Part shown: piece after piece, positions 8,137-43,736 of the stretch | Layout: each line of letters begins with the position of its first letter | Numbering within the stretch: position 1 is the first letter of the stretch | Virus record (IMG/VR): IMGVR_UViG_3300032030_000026 | Coordinates: 1 to 64,000 of that record | Direction: 5' to 3' (one strand) | Origin: a virus | Taxonomy: Duplodnaviria; Caudoviricetes | DNA: 64,000 nt | Notes under the pieces: model-generated | Told to the model about the DNA's origin: nothing | Databases searched by the model: none | The model's input: only the letters and a program-made list of their open reading frames with translations | Program-made: the position numbers and the translations under genes

Positions 8137-9468
8137 ATGGAAAACTCAATAACTCTTGTAGGAAAATATACTAAAGCCGAGATTTTTGCCAAAACCGTAG
8201 AAGATGGCGTATATGGTCAAGTGTACGACATCATCAACAATCCCGCATTCTTGGGTAAGAAAGTGGTCCTGATGCCGGATGTGCATGTGGGAGCAAGCGG
8301 ACCCTGCGGGCTGGTAGCGGAAATCGGGGACTGGATTTGTCCGGAGCATATTGGTGTGGATATCGGATGTTCGGTGACTATGATGATGTTAGATGGATTT
8401 ATTCCTGAAGATAAATTAGTTTTATTAGAGCATCGAGTCAAACAATCAGTCCCTATGGGATTCAATCTTCATGAACATACTGTCATAGATGAAAAAGACT
8501 TCTTCAAGTTCTTAGGTACGGAATTCATGAAGGCTAGAACTTTATGGCCTGAAGTTTTCGATATTGATCATCTTCCTAATGTAGTTACGGAAAAATGGAT
8601 CGGCAAGCAACTTAAAAAACTTGGGATGGAACCCGGAGTTTTCTATAAATCATTAGGAACCATTGGTGGAGGAAATCACTTTATTGAATATGGAGAATCC
8701 AAATTGAATGGTGCTATCACTATGCACTTCGGGAGCCGGAATCTTGGAGTCAAAGTCTGTAAGTACTGGATGAAGAAAACAACCAATCCTATGACAAAGG
8801 CGGAAGCTCAAAAAGTTGTGGCGGAATTCAAAAAGGAGTGGAATAGAACTCATAAAAGTGATATGTGTGGATTCAACGAAGCTCTTAAGAAAGAAATGCA
8901 AGAGCGTAAGAAGAATTTTATCAAAGGCTACCTTACAGGTGAAGACTTGAAAGGATATCTGGCGGATATGGTATTTGCTCAAGCGTATGCTAAATACAAT
9001 CATAAGACAGTCAAAGACATCATTTCTAAGATTCTTTCAAAGATGCATCTTCCTAAGATTGACAAGATGATCATCTGTACGCACAACTATATAGATTTCC
9101 GGGATCGCTACATCAGAAAATCTTCTATATCCGCACACGAAGGAGAGGAAGTCATTGTACCATTGAACATGAGAGATGGAACTGTGTTCGGTGTTGGAAA
9201 GGGAAATAAGTACTGGATGAATTCTTGCTCACACGGTGCCGGTAGAAAGATGTCCAGAAGCGAGGCCAAGAAAAACATCACTTTAGAGGAGTTCCAAGAA
9301 TCTATGCAAGGCATTGTGACTACTTCAGTAGATCAAACCACCATTGATGAATCCCCGATGGCCTATAAGGATACGGATGAGATCATTGATGTCATACAAG
9401 ACACTATAGATATATTGGCGGTATTCATTCCTAAAATATCTTGGAAAGCTTCCGAGACTCCCGAATAA
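8137..9468 (+). CDS. rtcB: RtcB RNA ligase
   Basis: MPDVH, GVDIGC, LGTIGGGNHFIE, HNY, SCSHGAGR, DESPMAYK. Confidence 0.95.
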   Translation: MENSITLVGKYTKAEIFAKTVEDGVYGQVYDIINNPAFLGKKVVLMPDVHVGASGPCGLVAEIGDWICPEHIGVDIGCSVTMMMLDGFIPEDKLVLLEHRVKQSVPMGFNLHEHTVIDEKDFFKFLGTEFMKARTLWPEVFDIDHLPNVVTEKWIGKQLKKLGMEPGVFYKSLGTIGGGNHFIEYGESKLNGAITMHFGSRNLGVKVCKYWMKKTTNPMTKAEAQKVVAEFKKEWNRTHKSDMCGFNEALKKEMQERKKNFIKGYLTGEDLKGYLADMVFAQAYAKYNHKTVKDIISKILSKMHLPKIDKMIICTHNYIDFRDRYIRKSSISAHEGEEVIVPLNMRDGTVFGVGKGNKYWMNSCSHGAGRKMSRSEAKKNITLEEFQESMQGIVTTSVDQTTIDESPMAYKDTDEIIDVIQDTIDILAVFIPKISWKASETPE

Positions 9469-25902: not shown

Positions 25903-26532
25903 ATGTTAATTAGAAAACAATACAGCATCGAGATGGGACATCTGGTCCGGAATTGTTCTTCGGAGAGATGCGCTTTCTCTCAACATGGGCACTCTGCTAT
26001 TATAGAAGTAATTCTGAGCGCAAGTGCATTGGATAACGCCGGAATGGTTTATGATTTCGGCCTGATGAAAGGCACCATCAAGCAATTTATTGATTCTTTT
26101 GACCATTGTTACGTTTTTTGGAACAAGGAATCGGAAGAATTCAAAAGATATATCAAGAAATTCAACCGCCGGTGGATAGAAGTAGACTTCAACCCCACCG
26201 CCGAGAACTTAGCATTGTTCTTCCACGGCTGGATAGAGTATATTCTTTCTAAGACCAAGATGAACAATAATGAGAGCCCCGATCTACATGTAGCTTCCGT
26301 CATTTATCATGAGACCGCCACCGGATATGCCCAGACGGAGTATGGTGATGTAGATCTGATTTATAAAAACCAAGTCGGAGAACATATTGATCCTAGATTG
26401 AAAATGTCTGATATTTCGGAACACGTCGCCAAAGATTGGTCTGATGATCTTAAATTAATCATGCATCATCGTAACATGGATTATGGTAAAGTTGTAGATA
26501 ATCCGATCCCGTTCCATCAAATTGAAAATTAA
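25903..26532 (+). CDS. queD: 6-carboxytetrahydropterin synthase QueD
   Basis: H.VRNC.SERC..S.HGHS, GMVYDFG, FDH, NPTAEN, HET. Confidence 0.9.
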   Translation: MLIRKQYSIEMGHLVRNCSSERCAFSQHGHSAIIEVILSASALDNAGMVYDFGLMKGTIKQFIDSFDHCYVFWNKESEEFKRYIKKFNRRWIEVDFNPTAENLALFFHGWIEYILSKTKMNNNESPDLHVASVIYHETATGYAQTEYGDVDLIYKNQVGEHIDPRLKMSDISEHVAKDWSDDLKLIMHHRNMDYGKVVDNPIPFHQIEN

Positions 26533-26561
26533 AAAAATATTAAATTAAAAATTTATAAAAT

Positions 26562-27488
26562 ATGAACAATTTAGATAATTCTTTATTTGAAAGTGTATGT
26601 GCTCTTCTGGGTATCGATAAAAAAGCGGTCGAAGAGTACTTAAAAGATCCCATGTCTAATATGACTTGCGATGTAGAACAAAAAGCTCCGGCGGAGACTC
26701 CCGTAATTGATCACGATGATCTGCCAAATCGTATGAACCCCGGTGGTAAGTCCGATAATCAGCTTAAAGCGGAAGGCTGGAAACTATCCGAAGATTTTGA
26801 AAAACGTGAGGACGGAGCTTATGTCTGCAAGAGAATCTGGACAAAATCCGAAAACCCCGGCGACCGCAAGTGTAAATGTGATTGTCAAGAAGGGCAACCG
26901 GATATTTCTGACGCCCGCTTGAAATCCGATTTGCTTACGGTGGACGGCTGGATGGACGTAATGAACTGGGCTTTGCTCCATAATTGGAGCACTATGAAAA
27001 TCGCCATGAATGAGAAGTTTCCGAACAATAAAGACGAAGTGGAGTCCGTCTTGAAATTTGTTAACATGGCACTGGAGGACACCGTCGAGTATCAGATCCC
27101 GGTCACATCTATCTGGAATAAATTTTCTTCTAAAAATGCTTATTCATGTGCGGAAGTCCTAGATCATATCATTCGTGACGTTATTGAGTCGATTAAAGTG
27201 AATGAAACAAATATAGTCACCGACATGAATAAGCTTTGCCCGGAAGCCCGCAATACACTTATCTGCAGACTGACTAAGTATAAATCGCTGTTAGATAGCG
27301 AAATGAATAAGATTATTGATTACACCGACAATATCGAGCCGCAATATCATCATATGAACATCATGACTCCATATATCGAATCCTCCCCGTATGCAATGAT
27401 TCTTCTTTGGGTATCCCTCATCACGGAATATCTTGCGGAACTGATTGAGATTACCAATAAGATTCTTTCAGCTAACAAGGTCCTTTAA
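26562..27488 (+). CDS. hypothetical protein
   Basis: 308-aa ORF between queD and queC. Confidence 0.7.
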   Translation: MNNLDNSLFESVCALLGIDKKAVEEYLKDPMSNMTCDVEQKAPAETPVIDHDDLPNRMNPGGKSDNQLKAEGWKLSEDFEKREDGAYVCKRIWTKSENPGDRKCKCDCQEGQPDISDARLKSDLLTVDGWMDVMNWALLHNWSTMKIAMNEKFPNNKDEVESVLKFVNMALEDTVEYQIPVTSIWNKFSSKNAYSCAEVLDHIIRDVIESIKVNETNIVTDMNKLCPEARNTLICRLTKYKSLLDSEMNKIIDYTDNIEPQYHHMNIMTPYIESSPYAMILLWVSLITEYLAELIEITNKILSANKVL

Positions 27489-27552
27489 GGACCTTTTTTT
27501 TATAAATATTCTTAAGAGAACTTATATATTAACTTATAAAATTCCATAAAAT

Positions 27553-28299
27553 ATGAAAAAAGACATTCAATTTGACAAACAAGCGGTAATCAGTTTCTCC
27601 GGAGGCATGGACAGCACTTGTCTGATGATGCATCTTCTCTCTAAAGGATACAAGGTCAATGCCTATAGCTTCGATTATGGACAGGCACATGCCGTAGAGC
27701 TCCGTCTTGCCAAGAAGAACATCAAGTATCTGCAAAGCCTGGGACTGCCGGTAGAATATCAGATCATCAACCTCCGGGACGTATTCTCCGGCGATACTAG
27801 CACGCTGGTAAGACACGAGAAATCGCCGGAAGGAGATTATAGAGAAGAATCCATGAAAAGTACCGTTGTAGCTAATCGCAATGTAATTTTCAGTTCCGTA
27901 ATTTTCGCTAAAGCATTAAGTTTAGCTAAGACCATCGGACAAAATGTATTGATTTCACTAGGCGTACATGCCGGTGATCATGCCATTTATCCGGATTGTA
28001 AGGAAGAATCCGTTAATATGGCTCGCGAACTGTACCGTATTTCCAATTGGGATTCCGAGCTAGTGGAATACGATGCTCCGTTCGTGAATATCAACAAATC
28101 GGGGGTGCTTAGCAAGGGACTGGAGGCAATGAAGAATTTAGGTATGACCAAATCTCAGATCAATAAAGTGCTCAAAAACACCATGTCTTGCTATAATGCA
28201 ACTCCGGATGGGAAGGCATGTGGCAAGTGCGGGACGTGCACGGAACGAATAGAGGCATTTCGAGATAACGGAATAAAAGATCCAATCCAATATGTTTAA
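27553..28299 (+). CDS. queC: 7-cyano-7-deazaguanine synthase QueC
   Basis: SGGMDS, FDYGQ.H, NRN, YPDC, SCY...CGKCGTC.ER. Confidence 0.95.
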   Translation: MKKDIQFDKQAVISFSGGMDSTCLMMHLLSKGYKVNAYSFDYGQAHAVELRLAKKNIKYLQSLGLPVEYQIINLRDVFSGDTSTLVRHEKSPEGDYREESMKSTVVANRNVIFSSVIFAKALSLAKTIGQNVLISLGVHAGDHAIYPDCKEESVNMARELYRISNWDSELVEYDAPFVNINKSGVLSKGLEAMKNLGMTKSQINKVLKNTMSCYNATPDGKACGKCGTCTERIEAFRDNGIKDPIQYV

Positions 28300-28351
28300 T
28301 ATCAAGACCTCTTCGGAGGTCTTTTTTTATTTTTTAAAAAAATATCATATA

Positions 28352-28753
28352 ATGAAAACATTAACGGAATCTATAATAGGGAAGAGAGGAAATTCGGCTA
28401 AATACACGAAAATACCCGGAACCCTGGAATGGTATTTCCGTAACCGGGATTACCATATAGATCGACACGAAATCGGTGATAATTGGTATGTGATGTATAA
28501 CGACAAAGCCGTATTGTTCTGGCATCCGGATGCAATGTGGTATCCTTATTTCTTCAAAAATGACAATCATTTATGGAAATATGCCTGGTCTCTAGTCGGG
28601 TCCGGATCTATTTCATATGTAGGGCCGGAAGAGGCTTATAACGACATAATGATGAGATTTGATGAATTCCTCCAGGATGGGCCTACCGTTCCATATTTGA
28701 CGGAGATAAAAATACCGGATAAAGTCAAGAATATTTTAAAGACAATGAAATAA
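28352..28753 (+). CDS. ESIIG-leader family protein, W.P.A..YPF subfamily
   Basis: MKTLTESIIGKRG; start reassigned to 28352. Confidence 0.8.
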   Translation: MKTLTESIIGKRGNSAKYTKIPGTLEWYFRNRDYHIDRHEIGDNWYVMYNDKAVLFWHPDAMWYPYFFKNDNHLWKYAWSLVGSGSISYVGPEEAYNDIMMRFDEFLQDGPTVPYLTEIKIPDKVKNILKTMK

Positions 28754-28761
28754 AACATATC

Positions 28762-29220
28762 ATGAAACATATCAGTGAATCTATAATAGGTAGGAAAGGA
28801 TCCGCAAATAGAACTATTATACACATACCAGGTACTATAGAATTTTTATATGAGGTGGACAGTCTTTCTAATCCGATGAATGGTTGGAAAGCCGCGGATA
28901 AATGTGATGATTGGTATTTACTGGTGGATCAAGAAAAATTGATAGTGATGTTATGGTCTCCGAACGCCAATTATTTTCCGTTTCTTTATACGGATGATGA
29001 TTGGAAATGGAACTTTAACAGAAGTTGGAATTTAGCCGTAAAAATCTTACCGGAATTGAAAGGTGTTAATAGTCCAAGCATGATGCATGATCTTATAAGC
29101 GATGCCGACCACTGGGATAAATATACGGCTAAAAAAGCTATTACGAATGTTTCGATAGAAATGCCAAAAGCAATTGAAAAGCTTATTCGCGATAAAGCGG
29201 GCTTGCATTTTTGGAAATAA
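28762..29220 (+). CDS. ESIIG-leader family protein, W.P.A..YPF subfamily
   Basis: MKHISESIIGRKG. Confidence 0.85.
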   Translation: MKHISESIIGRKGSANRTIIHIPGTIEFLYEVDSLSNPMNGWKAADKCDDWYLLVDQEKLIVMLWSPNANYFPFLYTDDDWKWNFNRSWNLAVKILPELKGVNSPSMMHDLISDADHWDKYTAKKAITNVSIEMPKAIEKLIRDKAGLHFWK

Positions 29221-29239
29221 TGGAAATAATGATAAGTAT

Positions 29240-29680
29240 ATGAAGACATTGCAAGAATCTATAATAGGGAGGAAAGGCATTCCGAGATCATTGACGAATG
29301 GATATACTATAAGTATACCGCGTATCAAAACTCTTAAATATGAAAAGACGGATGGTAGCTGGTCATATGATGATAAATGTATCGGATGGTATTTAATGAT
29401 GGATCACGAGAAGTCGACTATAATGTTATGGTCTCAAAAAGCCACTTATTATCCATTTATTTATGCAAGGGATATTATTTTTGATGGTTTCATGGGTAAT
29501 TGGAATTTAATGCCGGGTAAACCTAATATATCTATTGATGAAATATATGATATTTTAGATTCCGACGCCGAAACCTGGAATGATCTTGATCTTGTATGTG
29601 ATAGTATAACTAATATTGAAATAAATTTACCATCGGGAATTGAGTCACTAATCAAAGATTTTTATAAAAACACCAAATAA
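29240..29680 (+). CDS. ESIIG-leader family protein, W.P.A..YPF subfamily
   Basis: MKTLQESIIGRKG; start reassigned to 29240. Confidence 0.8.
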   Translation: MKTLQESIIGRKGIPRSLTNGYTISIPRIKTLKYEKTDGSWSYDDKCIGWYLMMDHEKSTIMLWSQKATYYPFIYARDIIFDGFMGNWNLMPGKPNISIDEIYDILDSDAETWNDLDLVCDSITNIEINLPSGIESLIKDFYKNTK

Positions 29681-30006
29681 TGAGAGCACTCAGCGAATCT
29701 ATAATAGGAAAGAAAAACACCCAATCCAGGTCGGCTTGGTATAACAGAGAATCTAAATTATCCCGAGATGAAATAATCGGAGATATTATGTGTTGTATAA
29801 GCAACATTCAAAGCAACGGTAATTATCTGCGTGGATTAAAGGATCCGGAGGCTAATTATGCCGAATACGTTGCGGATATTCTAAATATTGCAGCCAGGTG
29901 CAAAGACAAAAAAATATCGGATATGGCTAAAAAGTACTTACATAATTCTCCCGATGAAGAGCTTTTTGATGGGGTAATTGCCATATCACAATTGCTAGGA
30001 ATTTAA
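29680..30006 (+). CDS. ESIIG-leader family protein
   Basis: MRALSESIIGKKN. Confidence 0.8.
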   Translation: MRALSESIIGKKNTQSRSAWYNRESKLSRDEIIGDIMCCISNIQSNGNYLRGLKDPEANYAEYVADILNIAARCKDKKISDMAKKYLHNSPDEELFDGVIAISQLLGI

Positions 30007-30019
30007 GCTATAAAAAATC

Positions 30020-30403
30020 ATGAAACATATTAACGAATCTATAATAGGGCGAAAAGGAACTCCTCTGCAGGATTGGCATACCGGGGATCTTGTATATATG
30101 AACATTAATGGCCCCAATATACCCGGAAATTATAATTATGTCTGGCTTTATTTAGATAAATATGAAGCTAAAAGACGGATGGATGAGTTCGAATCAAACG
30201 CTCATTTACAAAAAAAAATTCAAGAAGGAAAATCCGTATTTATACAGCCTGGTGCAATCAGGAGCAATTATAAATATGTTGGGCAGGCTTCGGAAAAATT
30301 TTTATCCAATTTTGCACAGGAACTGATTAGGATGGGTCGGTTGAAATTGGATCCTAAAAAAACTATACAAGAAAATTTAGAAGAAAACAATTACGGGCTA
30401 TGA
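30020..30403 (+). CDS. ESIIG-leader family protein
   Basis: MKHINESIIGRKG. Confidence 0.85.
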   Translation: MKHINESIIGRKGTPLQDWHTGDLVYMNINGPNIPGNYNYVWLYLDKYEAKRRMDEFESNAHLQKKIQEGKSVFIQPGAIRSNYKYVGQASEKFLSNFAQELIRMGRLKLDPKKTIQENLEENNYGL

Positions 30404-30822
30404 AACACATTCAAGAATCTATAATAGGCAGGAAAGGATCGAAAAGCAAATTTCTCCACATTCCCGGCAAGATAATGCTTAGATACGAAAAAGATGACCG
30501 TAGTTGGGACGGCAATGATTATTGTGGTGGGTGGTATGTATTCACCAATCCCGAAGAACAAATACTATTATTGTGGTCTCCGGAAGCGACATATTACCCA
30601 TATTTTCACTATGATACTACATCTAGTTGGAATCAAATAAAAACCGAAACTTGGGATTTATTAGAGGGAGTACCCGATATAAAAACACCGGAAGATGCGT
30701 ATGTTATTATAACAGATATAGATAAATGGAATGAGGCTGTTGTATATGCCACAATTTTTAGTGTTTATATAGATATACCGGATAATGTCATACGAGATAT
30801 TCGCAGATATACCGGATTATAA
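30400..30822 (+). CDS. ESIIG-leader family protein, W.P.A..YPF subfamily
   Basis: MKHIQESIIGRKG. Confidence 0.85.
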   Translation: MKHIQESIIGRKGSKSKFLHIPGKIMLRYEKDDRSWDGNDYCGGWYVFTNPEEQILLLWSPEATYYPYFHYDTTSSWNQIKTETWDLLEGVPDIKTPEDAYVIITDIDKWNEAVVYATIFSVYIDIPDNVIRDIRRYTGL

Positions 30823-30858
30823 AAGCATATCAAAGAGCTCCGCCGGAGCTTTTTTTAT

Positions 30859-30887
30859 CTTAATGTCCGGTGGAATCGGATTATATA
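30859..30887 (+). promoter_or_regulatory. putative phage promoter after a terminator
   Basis: CTTAAT-N12-CGGATTATATA. Confidence 0.55.
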
Positions 30888-30907
30888 TAACTGTAAAATC
30901 ATATTAT

Positions 30908-31246
30908 ATGGAATTAGCTATATCCGATAACCACAGACATGAATATCCCATAGAGAAGTTCTGGTATACCAAACATAATGGACACTCTATAGAATATATT
31001 ATAGATCACGATATCTCTTTTTTCGAATGGGCGGTAAAGGTATTCCAAGACGTCACACCATGTCAGGCGGAATACTATTATAAAAAATCGGGAAAGAAGA
31101 TTCCGGCATCCTGTATAAAGGCGGTTGTTCCATACACATGGGAAACCGGAGATCCGGAAAGACTATATATAGAATTATGTGAGTCCGGTGATCTGGAAAA
31201 GGTATTGTTCAAATACCGAAAAGGAAATCAATTAGACTTGTTTTAA
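30908..31246 (+). CDS. hypothetical protein
   Basis: ATG 30908 downstream of promoter; QLDLF C-terminus resembles a clamp-binding motif. Confidence 0.6.
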   Translation: MELAISDNHRHEYPIEKFWYTKHNGHSIEYIIDHDISFFEWAVKVFQDVTPCQAEYYYKKSGKKIPASCIKAVVPYTWETGDPERLYIELCESGDLEKVLFKYRKGNQLDLF

Positions 31247-31360
31247 CGCGATATTTTGAGCGATCTATATCTTAGGTATATAATTATACGATTTTGATAC
31301 GAACGCTTAAAATAACCGCATTTGTGTGCGATTTAAATATAAAATTCATAATAATATAAT

Positions 31361-31588
31361 ATGGCAAAACAACAACCAATAGAAGTCGATGCAATCGTCA
31401 CAGAGGCCTTAGGCAATGGAATTTTCCGATGCGAGTTAGAAAACGGACATGAAGTGATTGCTCATCTCTCCGGCAAGATGCGAACCAAATATATCCGGAC
31501 TATTCCGGGCGATAAAGTCCGGCTAGAAATGACTCCTTATGATCTGACCAAAGGAAGAATTTCTTATAGATATAAGGCAGATTCTTAG
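31361..31588 (+). CDS. infA: translation initiation factor IF-1
   Basis: [38 protein letters not shown]. Confidence 0.97.
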
Positions 31589-31614
31589 AATATCTTAAAA
31601 GAAACTTAAAAGAT

Positions 31615-32091
31615 ATGTTAAAATACACAGATACACAGGTAGTATTCAGAGAATTTCCCGGAGAGATAACGCTTGCTATCAACATCTCGGGATGCCCTAA
31701 CCGGTGTCCGGGGTGTCATAGTCCGGAACTGCAGCAGGATATCGGCAAGCCGCTGAACTGGGATACTTTGAAGGATCTTATCGAGAAGAATCCCGGCGTC
31801 ACATGTATAGGATTCATGGGTGGTGACAATGATCCGATGATGGTTAAATATTTAGCTTATCAGATCAGGTCTCGTTTTGATATGAGAGTGGGGTGGTATA
31901 CCGGAGTCGGAAATGCCCAGACTATGAGAGAGATGGATTATGTGAAGATCGGAACTTATCAAGAGCAATTCGGGCCCCTGGATTCACCTACCACCAACCA
32001 GGTATATCTAGAAAGACAACCTAATGGAGATTGGAGAGACAGGACCGACAAGTTCTGGGTTCATAAAAATTCGGAGAACAATCCGGACTAA
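31615..32091 (+). CDS. nrdG: anaerobic ribonucleotide reductase activating protein (radical SAM)
   Basis: VFREFPGEITLAINISGCPNRCPGCHS, FMGGD, PTTNQ. Confidence 0.88.
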   Translation: MLKYTDTQVVFREFPGEITLAINISGCPNRCPGCHSPELQQDIGKPLNWDTLKDLIEKNPGVTCIGFMGGDNDPMMVKYLAYQIRSRFDMRVGWYTGVGNAQTMREMDYVKIGTYQEQFGPLDSPTTNQVYLERQPNGDWRDRTDKFWVHKNSENNPD

Positions 32092-32149
32092 AATTCTTAA
32101 ATATTAATCATAAGAAACTTATATATTTCCATACTAAATATCAAAAATC

Positions 32150-33298
32150 ATGCCAATCAAGAAAAGTGAAATCAAGACGGAGCTGGATCAGCTCAAATAT
32201 GACTACATGAGAGCCTATCAACGGATGTGGGAGGCTCGGAAACGCGGGAAGGATCTTAAAGAATATGAAAAATGCCTGGCTGGAATCAAGGAGAAGATGG
32301 ATAAGATCACCGGACTGGCTCCCGGACACCGCACCGTCCATGAACTAGATCGTAGTGAATATAAACAAGAGTTTGTGCCGGATAAAGATTATCTGGATTC
32401 TATGCCGGATCTTCAAAATTCCCAATTCATCGGAACCCCCATCGATTTTGTAGGTATTGAAGGAATGAGGATTCCTTTGAAGATCAAGCAGAAAAAAGGA
32501 GGAACCCAAGAGGTAGTCTGTGATGTCACCGGCACGGTCTCTTTAGATGCGGCCAAACGCGGTATCAATATGAGCCGCATCCTCCGTTCTCTACAGAAGA
32601 CCACTAAAGGGGCCACTACTTTCGACATCAACGATCTGGAAAAAGTACTGAAAGCCTATCAGAAAGACTTAGATACTTTTGATGCTCACATCTTAGTGAA
32701 CTTCCCATACCGCCTTTGGCAGCCTAGTCTGCGCAGCGTGGATGAAGACGGCGAGCCTAACGGAGGCTGGCAATATTATAATGTCACTTTTGACTGTAAC
32801 TTGGATGTCGACGGAGAGTTCAAGAAGATTATCTGGTTTGATTATGTGTATTCTTCCGCCTGCCCCTGTTCTACGGAACTTTCCATGCATGCTCAGGAGA
32901 CCCGCGGAGTATATGCCATCCCACATTCACAAAGAAGCGTAGCTCGTATAGGTATCGAGATGGGTAACACACTAGTCTGGATTGAAGACATCCTGGCTAT
33001 GTGCAAGAAAGCTATCCCTACCGAAACCCAAGTTTTTGTCAAGAGAGAGGACGAGCAGGCCTTTGCGGAGATGAATGGTGCTAATACTATTTTTGTAGAG
33101 GATGCCGTCAGGAAGCTGAGTGTCGTCTTGGAAGACAATGCGGCGGTGATGGATTATAAGATTATTTGTTCTCATTTTGAATCATTACATAAATCCAATG
33201 CTATCTCGGTTATTACTCGTGGTCGGAGAAGAGATGGGGGAATATCTATTTTCAATCATCATGCTCCACTTGGAGAATGGAGATCTTTAAAGGTGTAA
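32150..33298 (+). CDS. folE2: GTP cyclohydrolase IB (FolE2) with N-terminal extension
   Basis: RGINMSR, SACPCS, PHSQRS, VKREDE, FVEDAVR, ESLH. Confidence 0.93.
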   Translation: MPIKKSEIKTELDQLKYDYMRAYQRMWEARKRGKDLKEYEKCLAGIKEKMDKITGLAPGHRTVHELDRSEYKQEFVPDKDYLDSMPDLQNSQFIGTPIDFVGIEGMRIPLKIKQKKGGTQEVVCDVTGTVSLDAAKRGINMSRILRSLQKTTKGATTFDINDLEKVLKAYQKDLDTFDAHILVNFPYRLWQPSLRSVDEDGEPNGGWQYYNVTFDCNLDVDGEFKKIIWFDYVYSSACPCSTELSMHAQETRGVYAIPHSQRSVARIGIEMGNTLVWIEDILAMCKKAIPTETQVFVKREDEQAFAEMNGANTIFVEDAVRKLSVVLEDNAAVMDYKIICSHFESLHKSNAISVITRGRRRDGGISIFNHHAPLGEWRSLKV

Positions 33299-33371
33299 AA
33301 ATATAGGTCATTTATTTAGATCGTTATAAAAGCCCTTCGGGGCTTTTATTTTTTATATAAAAACACGTAGA

Positions 33372-34472
33372 ATGAATACATGGGCATATAATTATTTCTA
33401 TAAAACCACATTAATTCCAACCGGACAATTTTATTATGGAATACACAGTACGAATAATATAAATGATGGATACCTGGGGTCCGGTGTTCGTTTGAGAAAA
33501 TTATTTGATCAATATAAGAAAAGTGATTTTTCTAAAGAGATTATAAAATATTTTAATAGTAGGAAGGAACTGTCGGATTATGAAAGAGAATATATAACAT
33601 TTGATATTCTAAATGATCCTTTATGTCTTAATGTATCGTTAGGTGGAGATTTACATGATAATATTGGTGTTACTAAAGGACTAGTAACTGTTAAAGATAA
33701 AGATGGGAATATATTTGATACTTCAATAAATGATCCGCGATATTTATCCGGAGAATTAATTCCACCAACTAGAGGAACAGTCTCAGTCCGTGATAAATCC
33801 GGTAAAGTCATCAAAGTGCCTGTAAACGATCCGCGGTATTTATCCGGAGAACTAGTAATAATAACTAAAGGAAATAAGGGTATGACCGGACGAACTATGG
33901 TTAAAAAAGATGGAATTCAAAAAAGCATATTATTATCCGAACTTGAAGATTATATAAAAAATGGGTGGGTTCGTGGTAATCTTGATAAAGGCCGAACAAG
34001 TCCCACTAAAGGAAGAATATGGATCTATAAAGATGACAGGCAATTGTGTGTATTATCATCGGAACTTGAAAAATATATAAATGAAGGGTGGACAAAAGGA
34101 AGAATTTGCAAATCCATAAAAGATAGAGTTTCGATAACAAAAGATAATAAAAATAAATATGTTGAAATATATGAACTCGGAAAATATTTACAAGAGGGTT
34201 GGCGATTGGGGGCAACATCTAGAAATAAAGGAAAAGTAACTGTTACTGAGGATGGAATTAATTGGTTTGATGTTGAGAATGATGATGAAAGATTTAAATC
34301 TGGTAAATTAAAGTGTCTTTTTCAAATAAAAAATGTTACTAAAGGCTTGAAGTACATTCATAAGGATGGAAAAATAAAAAGAGTTCGTCCGGAATATGTT
34401 GATAAATTTTTACAAGATGGGTGGATTTTAGGTATGGGGTCTAAATCAAAAAAAGAAAAACAAAATAATTAA
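33372..34472 (+). CDS. free-standing GIY-YIG (Seg-like) homing endonuclease
   Basis: YFYKTT...FYYGIHST...DGYLGSG; C-terminal Y...GW..G repeats. Confidence 0.8.
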   Translation: MNTWAYNYFYKTTLIPTGQFYYGIHSTNNINDGYLGSGVRLRKLFDQYKKSDFSKEIIKYFNSRKELSDYEREYITFDILNDPLCLNVSLGGDLHDNIGVTKGLVTVKDKDGNIFDTSINDPRYLSGELIPPTRGTVSVRDKSGKVIKVPVNDPRYLSGELVIITKGNKGMTGRTMVKKDGIQKSILLSELEDYIKNGWVRGNLDKGRTSPTKGRIWIYKDDRQLCVLSSELEKYINEGWTKGRICKSIKDRVSITKDNKNKYVEIYELGKYLQEGWRLGATSRNKGKVTVTEDGINWFDVENDDERFKSGKLKCLFQIKNVTKGLKYIHKDGKIKRVRPEYVDKFLQDGWILGMGSKSKKEKQNN

Positions 34473-41850: not shown

Positions 41851-42231
41851 ATGGAAAAGAAGATAAATGATCGTAGATATACAATTCTCGGAATTCACCG
41901 AAACGGTACATTATATGGATGGGCAGAGAATTCATTTTCCTTCTCCGCATCCGAGACGCACACTCGTGTATGGGGCGCGGAATATAAAGAATTCGGCGGT
42001 CGAAAATATTGGAAGCCGAACAGAAACCAGTCCAACTGGAACTATCTCAAAAAAGTTGCTGATGATCTGACTGCAAAGAAGTTTATGAACTGCGTCTGGA
42101 GAGTGTACCGAGTCGGCAGCAAGCACTGCCCAGCTGACATAGACTTCAGAACTTGCGATCTGATGAAACATGGTAAAATAAAATACGACAAATATCTGGC
42201 GAGAAACCACAGATTCTCGCCGAAACAATAA
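41851..42231 (+). CDS. basic hypothetical protein within the tRNA island
   Basis: 126-aa ORF filling the gap between RNA genes. Confidence 0.65.
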   Translation: MEKKINDRRYTILGIHRNGTLYGWAENSFSFSASETHTRVWGAEYKEFGGRKYWKPNRNQSNWNYLKKVADDLTAKKFMNCVWRVYRVGSKHCPADIDFRTCDLMKHGKIKYDKYLARNHRFSPKQ

Positions 42232-42494
42232 CGGGCGACCCGGATAATGGGGATTGAACAGGCGGATTAGCTACCGCTTACGCAATGGCGCTTCTGAGAC
42301 GGATCTCAGAGACAAGCCGTAAAGTGCGGAACCGAAAGTCCAATGAGCTGTAGACAATCGGCGCAAGCACCAGAACTCAGGCGATGACAGTTGCAATAGA
42401 GCTCAATAAAGAGCTGCCAAGTCTGAGTCATTCTCTGACTGGACAGGCCAGTCCAAGAAGAAGCGTTCAGGAGGTTCGACTCCTCCTCGCCCGA
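42232..42494 (+). ncRNA. 263-nt RNA framed by a tRNA acceptor stem and T arm
   Basis: CGGGCGA/TCGCCCG-A; GGAGG-TTCGACT-CCTCC; TGAAC/GTTCA helix encloses several hairpins. Confidence 0.65.
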
Positions 42495-42501
42495 CTAAGT
42501 T

Positions 42502-42586
42502 GGCTGAGTGGCGAAATTGGTAGTACGCTTCAGACTTAAAATCTGATGTCCGTAAGGACGTGCGGGTTCAAGTCCCGCCTCAGCTA
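42502..42586 (+). tRNA. tRNA-Leu(TAA), long variable arm
   Basis: TCAGA-CTTAAAA-TCTGA. Confidence 0.9.
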
Positions 42587-42659
42587 CAAACAGTGGACAT
42601 TTGGAGGGAAATTGTTAAAACGTTGTGATTCGCTCATGGAAATGTCCTAACAACGTTAC

Positions 42660-42732
42660 GCGTCAGTAGCTCAGTAGGTAGAGCACATCCCTTTTAAGGA
42701 TGGGGTCCCGGGTTCGAGTCCCGGCTGACGCA
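42660..42732 (+). tRNA. tRNA-Lys(TTT)
   Basis: CATCC-CTTTTAA-GGATG. Confidence 0.92.
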
Positions 42733-42739
42733 CTTATAA

Positions 42740-42822
42740 GGAGAGCTAAATCGGCGGGGCCGATCGCTGTTTGGAAGACAGTTGGAAGGTAACACTTTGG
42801 GGATCGAGACCTCAGTTCTCCG
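42740..42822 (+). tRNA. tRNA-Ser(GGA), 8/4 fold, second copy
   Basis: GGAGAGCT/AGTTCTCC; loop TTGGAAG. Confidence 0.82.
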
Positions 42823-42827
42823 CACAA

Positions 42828-42900
42828 GCCCTTGTAGCGCAATTGGTAGAGCATCTGTTTTGTAGTCAGAGGGTTGGGGGTTCAAGTCCTCTCAGGGGCT
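42828..42900 (+). tRNA. tRNA-Thr(TGT), second copy
   Basis: TCTG(T)-TTTGTAG-(T)CAGA. Confidence 0.82.
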
Positions 42901-42917
42901 CTTATTATAATTATATT

Positions 42918-42993
42918 GGGAGTTTAGCTCAGCTGGTTCAGTAGCGTCTGCCTTACAAGCAGAAGGTCGTTGGTTCGAATCCAACAACTCCCA
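42918..42993 (+). tRNA. tRNA-Val(TAC), second copy
   Basis: TCTGC-CTTACAA-GCAGA. Confidence 0.9.
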
Positions 42994-42998
42994 CAAAG

Positions 42999-43264
42999 CT
43001 GGCGTCGTTGACGCTCCGGTGAAAGGATGTTTGGACGAGGGGTTCGATTCCCTCTACCTCCACTATTTCTTAGCTGACCAACCAAGATGTTGGAACAGTT
43101 ACGGTGGCGGAAACTTAATATGAGATCCGTCACTTGCTTATGGGGGTAATTGGTTTTGACAGCATTTGAGTAAGAAGAGAAGAGATGCCGGTGAGTGAGA
43201 ATAAATCACAAAACAACTGTTCGTCTCGCTGCTTAAGCCTAGGGCTCACAACAAGCGAGGGTCC
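42999..43264 (+). ncRNA. ssrA: circularly permuted (two-piece) tmRNA
   Basis: T arm and TACCTCC-A (43055-43062) precede GGGGGTA-ATTGGTTTTGACAGC (from 43142); G3-U70; tag frame ending VRLAA-stop (43207-43236). Confidence 0.85.
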
Positions 43265-43293
43265 GGGGAGAACCAAATCTCCCCATTTCTTTT
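43265..43293 (+). terminator. intrinsic terminator after tmRNA
   Basis: GGGGAGA-ACCAAA-TCTCCCC followed by a T-rich tail. Confidence 0.7.
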
Positions 43294-43341
43294 GTAAATA
43301 TGGAAGATTGATTTCTTATTTTTAGGTAAATAAAACATATT

Positions 43342-43736
43342 ATGGCATTTATAACTAAGAATGAGGAAGAATTCAGACAAGGTCAAGAATTTTACAAAGA
43401 TATTATTCCGCTGTTCGTAAACGTATCGTAAACGTAAAGACCAACCATGAGACTATATACGGAATATCATGTCCACAGATTAATGATGTGCAAGAAATGA
43501 TCATAAATGCACTAAAAGAGGTTACCGTGCCGTTTGAAGGTTCTATAAGTGTCGAGCTAGGCTTGCTTTCCGATAGTTCTAAGTTCGTCACAGCAACAAA
43601 GATCAATTATGATCAATGGATCCAGATTAGAAATTACAATATAGAAATTGAATTAGAGGTTGCACATGTTCTAAGCAATGAATTCTTTGCGGGATTGTGC
43701 AATAAATATCTAAAATTAATAAACAAGCTGTCGTAG
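43342..43736 (+). pseudogene. frameshifted hypothetical gene (or 1-nt sequencing error)
   Basis: ATG 43342 frame stops near 43431; another frame runs open from about 43407 to 43736. Confidence 0.45.

What the first reader, a model, noticed from the sequence alone, without database searches (positions are those of the whole stretch)
42232..42494. 263-nt ornate RNA built on a tRNA acceptor and T-arm frame
Seen: a 7-bp acceptor stem, A73 and C74, a perfect T arm and a small D-like hairpin. A TGAAC/GTTCA helix in place of the anticodon stem encloses about 200 nt of hairpins (AGGCGG/CCGCTT, TCTGAGA/TCTCAGA, ACTCAGGC/GTCTGAGT, TGGAC/GTCCA). The layout is tmRNA-like, but there is no G3-U70 and no clear tag ending in AA-stop. 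Inference: a possibly undescribed class of large tRNA-framed ncRNA.
Basis: partly seen in the sequence, partly recalled or inferred. Interest (0 to 1): 0.75.

Follow-up and report, generated by a model that had tools for sequence, protein, structure and literature searches.

The report
Phage tRNA-shaped RNA with partner protein
This is a real, expressed 264-nt phage RNA that keeps the acceptor/T-arm body of a tRNA but carries a large branched extra arm; it is always encoded next to one small unknown protein in large phages (rumen phages, Lak megaphages, KVP40-like phages) and matched no described RNA family in my searches.

Summary
The feature is real. At 42232-42495 (+) lies a 264-nt RNA gene with a paired acceptor stem, a T arm (TTCGACT loop), A73-C74 and a small D-like hairpin. 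ARAGORN and Rfam 15 do not recognise it, even at E<=10. It is 87.5-97.7% identical among relatives whose adjacent ORF DNA is only 77-84% identical. Rumen metatranscriptome contigs cover the RNA with its insert and stop at 42495.

Covariation and distant homologues favour a 6-bp acceptor stacked on a 6-bp T stem, a D-like hairpin, and a non-decoding hairpin at the anticodon-arm place. About 170 nt of branched insert sits at the variable-arm place.

The RNA forms a conserved two-gene module with a basic, roughly 110-190-aa protein (phrog_15953) that has no detectable match to a known family or solved fold. The module occurs in rumen huge phages, Prevotella Lak megaphages and cultured T4-like phages (KVP40, Cronobacter S13, Citrobacter Ci1). 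Gene order is ORF-RNA or RNA-ORF.

It is not a tmRNA: there is no G3:U70 and no tag, no SmpB was found in the incomplete record, and the phage has its own two-piece tmRNA. It is not an intron-bearing tRNA either. Function is unknown. My best guess is a tRNA-processed, CCA-ended RNA that works as an RNP with the partner protein.

The parts
41851..42231 (+). Partner gene: 126-aa basic protein (pI 9.9) of family phrog_15953. Its stop codon TAA directly abuts the first base of the RNA.
   Evidence: PHROG match in 48 of 50 members. 104 cluster representatives found. AF2 model pLDDT 87.8 with no PDB fold match. No Pfam, NCBIfam or PDB sequence match. Always next to the RNA.
42232..42495 (+). The whole RNA gene: position 1 to C74, 264 nt.
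   Evidence: RNA contigs cover 42278-42495 (X4), 42267-42465 (X9) and a 266-nt head-to-tail form (X3).
42232..42237 (+). Acceptor stem, 5' strand (CGGGCG). A 42238 can pair with T 42487 in some relatives only.
   Evidence: Pairs 1-6 with 257-262 are 100% kept, with C-G to U-A at pair 5.
42239..42251 (+). D-like hairpin CCCG GAUAA UGGG.
   Evidence: Invariant in 7 relatives. Purine- or GG-rich hairpins sit at the same place in most other lineages read by eye; L016-type RNAs have a long hairpin there instead.
42253..42286 (+). Arm at the anticodon-arm place: AYUG/CARU plus AGGCGG/CCGCUU with an 8-nt loop (A/G)UUAGCUA. No anticodon loop.
   Evidence: Pair 23-54 changes U-A to C-G. The loop at this place is 4 to 13 nt long and variable in other lineages.
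42287..42292 (+). Closing helix of the giant extra arm, 5' strand (GRCGCU). Its partner is 42463-42468.
   Evidence: 100% paired, G-U/A-U. The same position in L028 holds a different sequence, ACGGAACGG/UCGUUCUGU.
42293..42462 (+). Branched insert. Contains hairpin 42293-42310, domain 42324-42370, domain 42375-42428 (with the conserved hairpin 42388-42416, loop GCAAUAGAGCUCAAUAAAG) and hairpin 42441-42454.
   Evidence: Four pairs with compensatory changes lie in these helices. The conserved hairpin has a covarying stem and a related loop in 10 lineages.
42463..42468 (+). Closing helix of the extra arm, 3' strand (AGCGUU). One C separates it from the T stem.
42469..42487 (+). T arm: 6-bp stem AGGAGG/CCUCCU and loop UUCGACU.
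   Evidence: Pair 238-256 changes A-U to G-C in three relatives. The T loop UUCGANY is kept in nearly all lineages (L030 reads UUCGUUA, L028 UUCAACU).
42488..42495 (+). Acceptor 3' strand CGCCCG, discriminator A (42494) and C74 (42495).
   Evidence: Two RNA contigs end at 42495. One of them continues with C,A where the DNA reads T,A. Relatives encode GCCA (KVP40, S13) or ACCA (L039).

Best explanation
A stable non-coding RNA that uses a tRNA body as its frame. A 12-bp acceptor/T-arm stack, a T loop and a D-like hairpin frame it. A non-decoding hairpin sits at the anticodon-arm place, and an extra arm of about 170 nt emerges where the variable arm of a class-II tRNA would.

Shown here:
- It is conserved more strongly than the neighbouring protein gene.
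- It is present as RNA, with the insert retained, in rumen metatranscriptomes.
- It is genetically linked, in either gene order, to one small, very basic protein family with no detectable match to a known family or fold (phrog_15953). The linkage holds across rumen huge phages, Lak megaphages and T4-like phages.

Inferred:
- The tRNA frame lets host RNase P and 3' trimming cut the RNA out of the tRNA-array transcript.
- The CCA-adding enzyme then completes it.
- The conserved loops of the extra arm bind the partner protein.
- The resulting RNP acts on something that recognises tRNAs: the translation apparatus, tRNA enzymes, or tRNA-targeting host defences.

The molecular target is unknown.
For: Existence and conservation:
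- RNA identity is 87.5-97.7% against 77.2-84.3% for the adjacent ORF DNA.
- On 7 relatives, 99.4% of cells pair and 7 pairs show double changes. 0 of 500 shuffles reach this, and slid controls give 34-42%.
- In 16 lineages, 188 of 189 positions of the acceptor+T stack pair. The first five acceptor pairs score 80/80, against 46.6% across lineages.
- The stack stays 11-12 bp whether split 7+5, 6+6, 8+4 or 9+3.
- In five T4-like phages, 20 of 38 predicted pairs carry double changes.

Linkage to the protein:
- The ORF is followed by the RNA in the window clade; in L004, L016-L022 and L028-L042; and in Lak-A1, Lak-B2 and Lak-C1.
- The RNA precedes the ORF in KVP40, 6E35.1a, 1.081.O, S13, Ci1 and L054.
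- KVP40.0317 is a family member (hhalign probability 99.7%, E 4e-27).
- The protein family is uniformly basic: median pI 9.8, K+R 20%.

Expression and ends:
- 22 RNA runs from the 13 listed studies hold part of the stretch.
- Contigs cover 42278-42495 and 42267-42465. A 285-nt contig joins 42495 through 'CA' to the 5' end.
- The ORF is absent from X3 and X4.
- CCA is encoded in KVP40, S13 and L039.
Against: - No experiment or computation here shows that the protein binds the RNA. Adjacency is the only link.
- Some family members lack a large RNA beside the gene. L023 has only a normal-size tRNA upstream.
- In the L041/L043 clade the tRNA frame is replaced by a plain 12-16-bp terminal helix, so the tRNA body may be dispensable for the core function.
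- The non-templated 'CA' rests on one contig of depth 5.6. It can also be read as an A and a G insertion in that strain.
- Contigs cannot prove RNA ends.
- Family members were found by requiring acceptor pairing, which inflates the pairing counts.
Confidence: 0.6

Rival explanations
1. A cis-acting element of the partner gene's mRNA. The tRNA-like fold serves only as a processing or stability signal that sets the mRNA's 3' (or 5') end by RNase P cleavage, as mascRNA does for MALAT1. On this reading the RNA has no trans function.
For: The RNA starts directly at, or even overlaps, the ORF stop codon in the window, L028 and L004. One RNA-library contig spans ORF plus RNA (X1).
Against: - The RNA is more conserved than the ORF.
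- The extra arm of about 170 nt has conserved loops and covarying helices, which a processing signal does not need.
- Gene order is inverted in T4-like phages and L054, and spacing varies from 0 to about 78 nt.
- The RNA is found without the ORF in X3 and X4.
Confidence: 0.12
2. A tRNA-mimic decoy or sponge that works without the protein. It would titrate a host tRNA-directed factor, such as an anticodon nuclease or another defence enzyme that docks on the acceptor/T-arm elbow.
For: It sits in a tRNA array of about 40 genes, together with RtcB and several other tRNA-shaped RNAs that lack decoding loops. The tRNA elbow and CCA end are kept.
Against: A decoy needs neither a conserved 170-nt arm nor a dedicated protein. 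The arm at the anticodon place, which is the target of anticodon nucleases, is not tRNA-like and varies freely. The L041/L043 clade lacks the tRNA frame.
Confidence: 0.12
3. A divergent tmRNA-like RNA that is charged and enters stalled ribosomes to add a tag.
For: It has an acceptor/T-arm frame with a large internal domain. The 5' segment GGAUUGAAC resembles, from memory, the tmRNA GGAUUCGAC motif (my knowledge of E. coli ssrA).
Against: - The pair is G3-C70, not G3:U70. Acceptor sequences differ freely between lineages, so there is no common identity set.
- No conserved reading frame ends in a stop. The frame upstream of the conserved UAG has only 3 codons (read).
- ARAGORN and all Rfam tmRNA models fail.
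- The phage already has a two-piece tmRNA at 43002-43236 (57.5 bits).
- A D-like hairpin and a second arm are present where the tmRNA tRNA-like domain has none.
Confidence: 0.04
4. A decayed or intron-bearing tRNA gene (a pseudo-tRNA) with no function of its own. This is how small relatives are annotated in KVP40.
For: Neighbouring short tRNA-like genes are annotated as tRNA-Pseudo or tRNA-OTHER in KVP40, Ci1, S13 and 6E35.1a.
Against: - The sequence is strongly conserved, and compensatory changes run throughout the insert.
- No anticodon loop remains once any part is removed.
- No group I intron match was found, even at E<=10.
- RNA contigs retain the insert.
Confidence: 0.04

Closest known systems
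tmRNA (ssrA), including the two-piece form present in this window at 43002-43236
   Same: An acceptor stem stacked on a T arm frames a large structured internal domain. It is processed like a tRNA and has a CCA end. tmRNA works with a small basic partner protein (SmpB).
   Different: There is no G3:U70 and no tag frame, and no tmRNA model matches. A D-like hairpin and a second arm are present. The insert sits at the variable-arm place rather than replacing the anticodon stem. The partner protein is unrelated to SmpB by sequence (no Pfam match to the ORF), and the fold search listed no SmpB structure.
Phage T4 stable RNA species 1 (rnaC, 139 nt) in the T4 tRNA cluster
   Same: It is a phage RNA of unknown function encoded in the tRNA cluster. 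It has a canonical T arm (CCGGG UUCGAAU CCCGG) and paired termini around an insert.
   Different: It is half the size. No detectable sequence relation was examined beyond the T arm. T4 has no phrog_15953 gene beside it (tblastn searches found none; Trna.3 is unrelated).
KVP40-type 'pseudo-tRNAs' (tRNA-Pseudo-3, 116 nt; tRNA-OTHER in Ci1, S13 and 6E35.1a)
   Same: These are tRNA frames with an intact acceptor, D arm and T arm, and a replaced anticodon/variable region. tRNA-Pseudo-3 lies 5 nt after the same protein family's gene, KVP40.0317.
   Different: They are about 115 nt with a short insert and a true D arm. The RNA of 236-266 nt that corresponds in size and frame to the window's RNA lies upstream of the ORF in these phages and is not annotated.
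Class-II tRNAs (Leu, Ser, Tyr, Sec) with a long variable arm
   Same: An extra arm emerges between the anticodon arm and the T arm. The summed length of the acceptor/T stack is kept when the split changes; from my knowledge, tRNA-Sec uses 8+5 or 9+4.
   Different: The extra arm is about 170 nt and branched, against 10-20 nt. There is no anticodon loop and no canonical D arm in the window copy.
Bacterial Y RNA YrlA with Ro60/Rsr, often found beside RtcB
   Same: It is a tRNA-like module in a non-coding RNA that works with a protein, and RtcB is encoded in the same phage.
   Different: From my knowledge, the termini of YrlA lie in the Ro-binding stem, not in the acceptor. No TROVE/Ro60 gene is present in this phage record.

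Membership tests
tmRNA | G3:U70 wobble pair in the acceptor stem (alanine identity) | tested here: not met
   G3-C70 in the window. No lineage-wide G3:U70 (acceptor strands listed).
tmRNA | Tag reading frame with a resume codon, ending in a stop | tested here: not met
   I read the frames. Candidate frames are not conserved (AMALL versus AAALL). The frame before the conserved UAG has 3 codons. ARAGORN finds no tag.
tmRNA | Match to tmRNA covariance models | tested here: not met
   No hit to any tmRNA family at E<=10 in 42100-43400, except the separate permuted tmRNA at 43002-43236.
tmRNA | Works with SmpB | tested here: inconclusive
   No SmpB in the 115-kb record. The record is only about 57% complete, and the host SmpB could serve.
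tRNA with a group I or other intron | A canonical anticodon stem-loop is restored after removal of the insert | tested here: not met
   No 7-nt loop with U33 can be formed in any register. Loops at that place are 4 to 13 nt long in relatives.
tRNA with a group I or other intron | Insert absent from the mature RNA | tested here: not met
   RNA-library contigs of three studies carry the insert.
tRNA with a group I or other intron | Match to intron models | tested here: not met
   No Intron_gpI or gpII hit at E<=10.
tRNA-like RNA (acceptor/T-arm minihelix processed by tRNA enzymes) | About 12 bp of coaxial acceptor+T stack with a UUCRANY T loop | tested here: met
tRNA-like RNA (acceptor/T-arm minihelix processed by tRNA enzymes) | 3' end at N73 plus CCA, added or encoded | tested here: inconclusive
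   Contigs end at C74. One contig reads C,A beyond it, where the DNA reads T,A. GCCA or ACCA is encoded in KVP40, S13 and L039. Contigs cannot prove ends.
tRNA-like RNA (acceptor/T-arm minihelix processed by tRNA enzymes) | Cleavage by RNase P at position +1 | not testable with these tools
   The 5' end is inferred only from the head-to-tail contig.
Rfam large ornate phage RNAs (ROOL, GOLLD and others) | Match to the family model | tested here: not met
   No hit at gathering score or at E<=10.

The most novel reading that the evidence does not exclude
The RNA and its partner protein form a previously unrecognised class of phage ribonucleoprotein built on a chargeable, CCA-ended tRNA body. It would be a third kind of tRNA-bodied machine, beside tRNA and tmRNA-SmpB. 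On this reading the RNP docks on the ribosome, EF-Tu or an aminoacyl-tRNA synthetase to reprogram host translation during infection by large phages. The head-to-tail junction seen in RNA may additionally mean that the RNA is circularised in vivo, for example by the phage RtcB.
Probability: 0.12. Interest if true: 0.9.

Novelty: new variant of a known kind. Interest (0 to 1): 0.72.

Why it matters
Large phages carry tRNA islands whose non-tRNA content is mostly ignored or labelled 'pseudo-tRNA'. Three results make this one worth following.
- One such RNA is a conserved, expressed family with its own partner protein.
- It spans phage groups as distant as Lak megaphages (Prevotella, gut), rumen huge phages and KVP40-like vibriophages.
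- It is present, unannotated, in cultured phages (KVP40, Cronobacter S13, Citrobacter Ci1), so its function can be tested directly by genetics and biochemistry.

It may reveal a new way in which phages exploit the tRNA shape. It also gives a covariance-model target for annotation.

Tried and rejected
- Known RNA families: ARAGORN and Rfam gave no match, at gathering score and at E<=10 for the window, and at gathering score for 13 related loci.
- DNA search in the 'phages' collection with the RNA plus its flanks: only tRNA-level hits.
- Exact and degenerate DNA patterns in IMG/VR: only one close relative. The family was reached through the neighbouring protein instead.
- A first protein model from 7 sequences was too poor to use (pLDDT 39.8).
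- Fold searches with the good model: Foldseek against PDB gave a best E of 0.37, VIA wide a best Z of 4.1, and BFVD returned only unnamed family members. The ESM Atlas gave no usable hit.
- Profile against PDB sequences, Pfam, NCBIfam and PADLOC: nothing meaningful.
- Y-RNA/Ro60 idea: no TROVE gene in the record.
- Stop-codon recoding idea: long ORFs in the window do not lengthen when TAG is read through.
- T4 Trna.3 as a homologue of the partner protein: rejected.
- Genome-contig scan: no cellular relative found, but the patterns were narrow.
- A family-wide MAFFT alignment of the whole RNA was not good enough for a single consensus. No covariance model was built because the length exceeds the calibration limit.
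- Literature searches found no description of this RNA. The KVP40 genome paper is not held.
- Parts of the stretch without cover in RNA contigs (ORF in X3 and X4, spacer after 42495) are only weak hints.

Full report
**What the window is.** The window is the first 64 kb of a 115-kb IMG/VR virus record, estimated about 57% complete. Between 34996 and 44351 the + strand carries about 40 tRNA genes. Rfam also finds a two-piece (permuted) tmRNA at 43002-43236 (57.5 bits, gathering score 47). Elsewhere the window has RtcB (8137-9468) and a preQ0/7-deazaguanine gene set.

**Checking the observation.**
It has a 7-bp acceptor CGGGCGA/TCGCCCG, A73, C74 and no encoded CCA. It also has the T arm GGAGG-TTCGACT-CCTCC, a small hairpin CCCG-GATAA-TGGG, and the listed internal hairpins.
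- The strand folds better than any of 200 shuffles (-96.1 kcal/mol, z = -3.55).
- ARAGORN calls nothing here. Rfam 15 has no match at gathering score or at E<=10.
- One caution applies. In a tRNA array a distal 7/7 partner (G-U allowed) for the 3' flank of a T arm is common by chance. Twelve such spurious 'frames' in this window end at true tRNAs. Pairing alone is therefore weak evidence, and the case rests on comparison with relatives.

**Relatives and conservation.**
- DNA patterns found only one close relative in IMG/VR.
- The ORF that ends at the RNA's first base (41851-42231, 126 aa) opened the family: 7 close proteins, then 104 cluster representatives by profile search.
- In every contig of the window's clade, the RNA follows the ORF stop directly.
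- The RNA is 87.5-97.7% identical where the ORF DNA is 77.2-84.3% identical.
- A seven-sequence alignment (A8) supports a detailed structure. 99.4% of cells pair and 7 pairs carry changes on both sides. 0 of 500 shuffles reach this, and slid controls give 34-42%.

**Revised structure.**
- Its last A (42469) changes together with T 42487 (A-U to G-C) in three relatives, while A7-U66 breaks in the same sequences. The T stem therefore has 6 bp and the acceptor 6 bp.
- A helix AYUG/CARU with a U-A to C-G change wraps the AGGCGG hairpin. GRCGCU/AGCGUU then closes the insert, one base before the T stem.
- The distant homologue L028 has, at the same two positions, a hairpin followed by the 9-bp helix ACGGAACGG/UCGUUCUGU. 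It has no counterpart of TGAAC/GTTCA.
- The layout is therefore: acceptor, D-like hairpin, a non-decoding arm at the anticodon-arm place, a giant branched arm at the variable-arm place, then the T arm.

**The wider family.** Distant members of the protein family (27-46% identity) are again flanked by a tRNA-framed RNA of roughly 220-285 nt.
- L004 has an AT-rich copy, with a terminator after it.
- Contigs of Lak size carry it (L016-L022, L034-L040). So do the named genomes Lak-B2, Lak-A1 and Lak-C1.
- Further copies are in L028, L029, L030, L032/33, L036, L042, L047, L048 and L056.
- In T4-like phages the order is inverted, with the RNA upstream of the ORF. These are KVP40 (237 nt, GCCA encoded), Vibrio phages 6E35.1a and 1.081.O, Cronobacter S13 (266 nt, GCCA), Citrobacter Ci1 (whose fold is no better than shuffles, z = -0.76), and the metagenomic L054.
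- KVP40.0317 is a clear family member (hhalign 99.7%, E 4e-27). It is followed 5 nt later by the annotated 116-nt 'tRNA-Pseudo-3'.
- The RNA upstream of it lies in unannotated sequence.
- In five T4-like phages, 20 of 38 predicted pairs have double changes.

**What is conserved across lineages.**
- Across 16 lineages the acceptor sequences all differ, yet 188 of 189 stack positions pair. The first five acceptor pairs score 80/80, against 46.6% in a cross-lineage control. Members were picked by pairing, so these counts are biased upward.
- The summed acceptor+T stack stays at 11-12 bp whether split 7+5, 6+6, 8+4 or 9+3.
- A hairpin in the extra arm has a covarying stem and a related A/U-rich loop. 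Examples are GCAAUAGAGCUCAAUAAAG, GUAAUAGGGUGCAAUAAAG and GUAAUAAAUUGCAUUGAAAG.

**Exceptions.**
- L023 has only a normal-size tRNA next to the gene.
- In the L041/L043 clade a plain 12-16-bp terminal helix replaces the tRNA frame.

**Expression.**
- 22 runs on record as RNA, from the 13 studies listed (sheep and cattle gut/rumen), hold part of the stretch.
- I laid contigs from four runs:
  - X4 has a contig covering 42278-42495 that stops exactly at C74.
  - X9 has 42267-42465 at depth 14.6, and a separate ORF contig at depth 6.3.
  - X1 has one contig spanning ORF and RNA.
  - X3 (5 Mb in all) has a 285-nt contig that runs 42370-42495, then CAGGGCGACCTGGATAATG, then 42249-388. This is a head-to-tail form of 266 nt.
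- After C74 the X3 contig reads C,A where the DNA reads T,A. That fits non-templated CCA.
- It could also be an indel variant of that strain. The junction could come from circular RNA, from reverse-transcriptase template switching on an abundant RNA, or from tandem genes in a relative.
- The insert is present in all of these contigs, which argues against an intron.

**The partner protein.**
- With 50 sequences AlphaFold gives a confident model (pLDDT 87.8, pTM 0.80).
- No solved structure matches it.
- No Pfam, NCBIfam or PDB-sequence family matches it, and the few single-member PADLOC hits are weak. Only PHROG 15953, of unknown function, matches.
- All 50 members are basic (pI 9.3-10.7, K+R 20%). 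That is consistent with RNA binding but does not show it.

**What it is not.**
- Not a tmRNA: G3-C70, no common acceptor identity, no conserved tag frame, no model match, and a separate tmRNA is present. No SmpB was found in the incomplete record.
- Not an intron-bearing tRNA.
- Not a Y RNA module with Ro60.
- Not ROOL, GOLLD or any other Rfam family.

**Most likely mechanism.**
- Shown: a conserved, structured, expressed RNA with a tRNA frame, linked to one protein family.
- Inferred: tRNA-processing enzymes excise and finish it, the extra arm binds the partner protein, and the RNP engages something that reads tRNA shape.
- I put about 0.9 on 'real conserved tRNA-framed ncRNA plus partner gene' and about 0.35 on the RNP-acting-on-tRNA-machinery reading.

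**Novelty.** I found no description of this family in Rfam or in the searched literature. Short neighbours are annotated as pseudo-tRNAs in KVP40-type genomes. The concept (a tRNA-bodied ncRNA in a phage tRNA cluster) has a precedent in T4 species 1 RNA. I therefore rate it a new variant of a known kind, with a new partner protein and wide distribution.

Noticed in passing
window 43002-43236 (+): A two-piece (circularly permuted) tmRNA encoded by the phage. Rfam tmRNA_permuted scores 57.5 bits (gathering score 47). The acceptor piece lies upstream of the coding piece, and the tag ends ...LAA.
   Followed up: partly
window 25903-34472 (+): A 7-deazaguanine/preQ0 pathway gene set: QueD/PTPS (25903-26532), QueC (27553-28299), a radical-SAM QueE-like gene (31615-32091) and FolE2 (32150-33298). 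It suggests modified DNA or tRNA bases.
   Followed up: partly
window 8137-9468 (+): RtcB RNA ligase (Pfam E 1e-56). It may relate to tRNA repair, or to the head-to-tail RNA junction seen in one RNA contig.
   Followed up: no
window 42495 joined to about 42233 in RNA run X3: A 285-nt RNA-library contig joins the 3' end of the RNA, through 'CA', to its 5' end, giving a 266-nt circle. It could be circular RNA, template switching or tandem genes.
   Followed up: partly
L059 (Vibrio phage KVP40) 72-184, 195-318 and 1869-1984; L058 (Citrobacter phage Ci1) 789-903 and 910-1023: Annotated 'pseudo-tRNAs' of about 115 nt keep the acceptor, D and T arms. They share a hairpin with a 6-nt loop UGAYAA in place of the anticodon loop, so they may be a second conserved family of tRNA-shaped RNAs.
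   Followed up: partly
L059 1303-1863 (KVP40.0317): The annotated start of KVP40.0317 is probably too far upstream. The family match covers only residues 58-186, and the first 23 nt of the annotated CDS overlap the 3' end of the unannotated 237-nt RNA.
   Followed up: partly
L002 4242-4311: The closest relative of the window's phage encodes a tRNA with anticodon CUA (called tRNA-Pyl by ARAGORN), that is, a TAG suppressor. The window's long ORFs show no sign of TAG recoding.
   Followed up: partly
L041 about 1097-1340 and L043 about 1858-2150: In one clade the partner protein has a C-terminal extension (239-252 aa). Its RNA has a plain 12-16-bp terminal helix instead of the tRNA frame, but it shares internal motifs (GCGGUUAG, hairpin followed by AUAAG).
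   Followed up: partly
window 35857, 36180, 39495, 41182 and others: Several further tRNA-shaped genes in the array have 6-, 8- or 12-nt loops in place of the anticodon loop. ARAGORN labels them 'tRNA-???', or only Rfam detects them.
   Followed up: no
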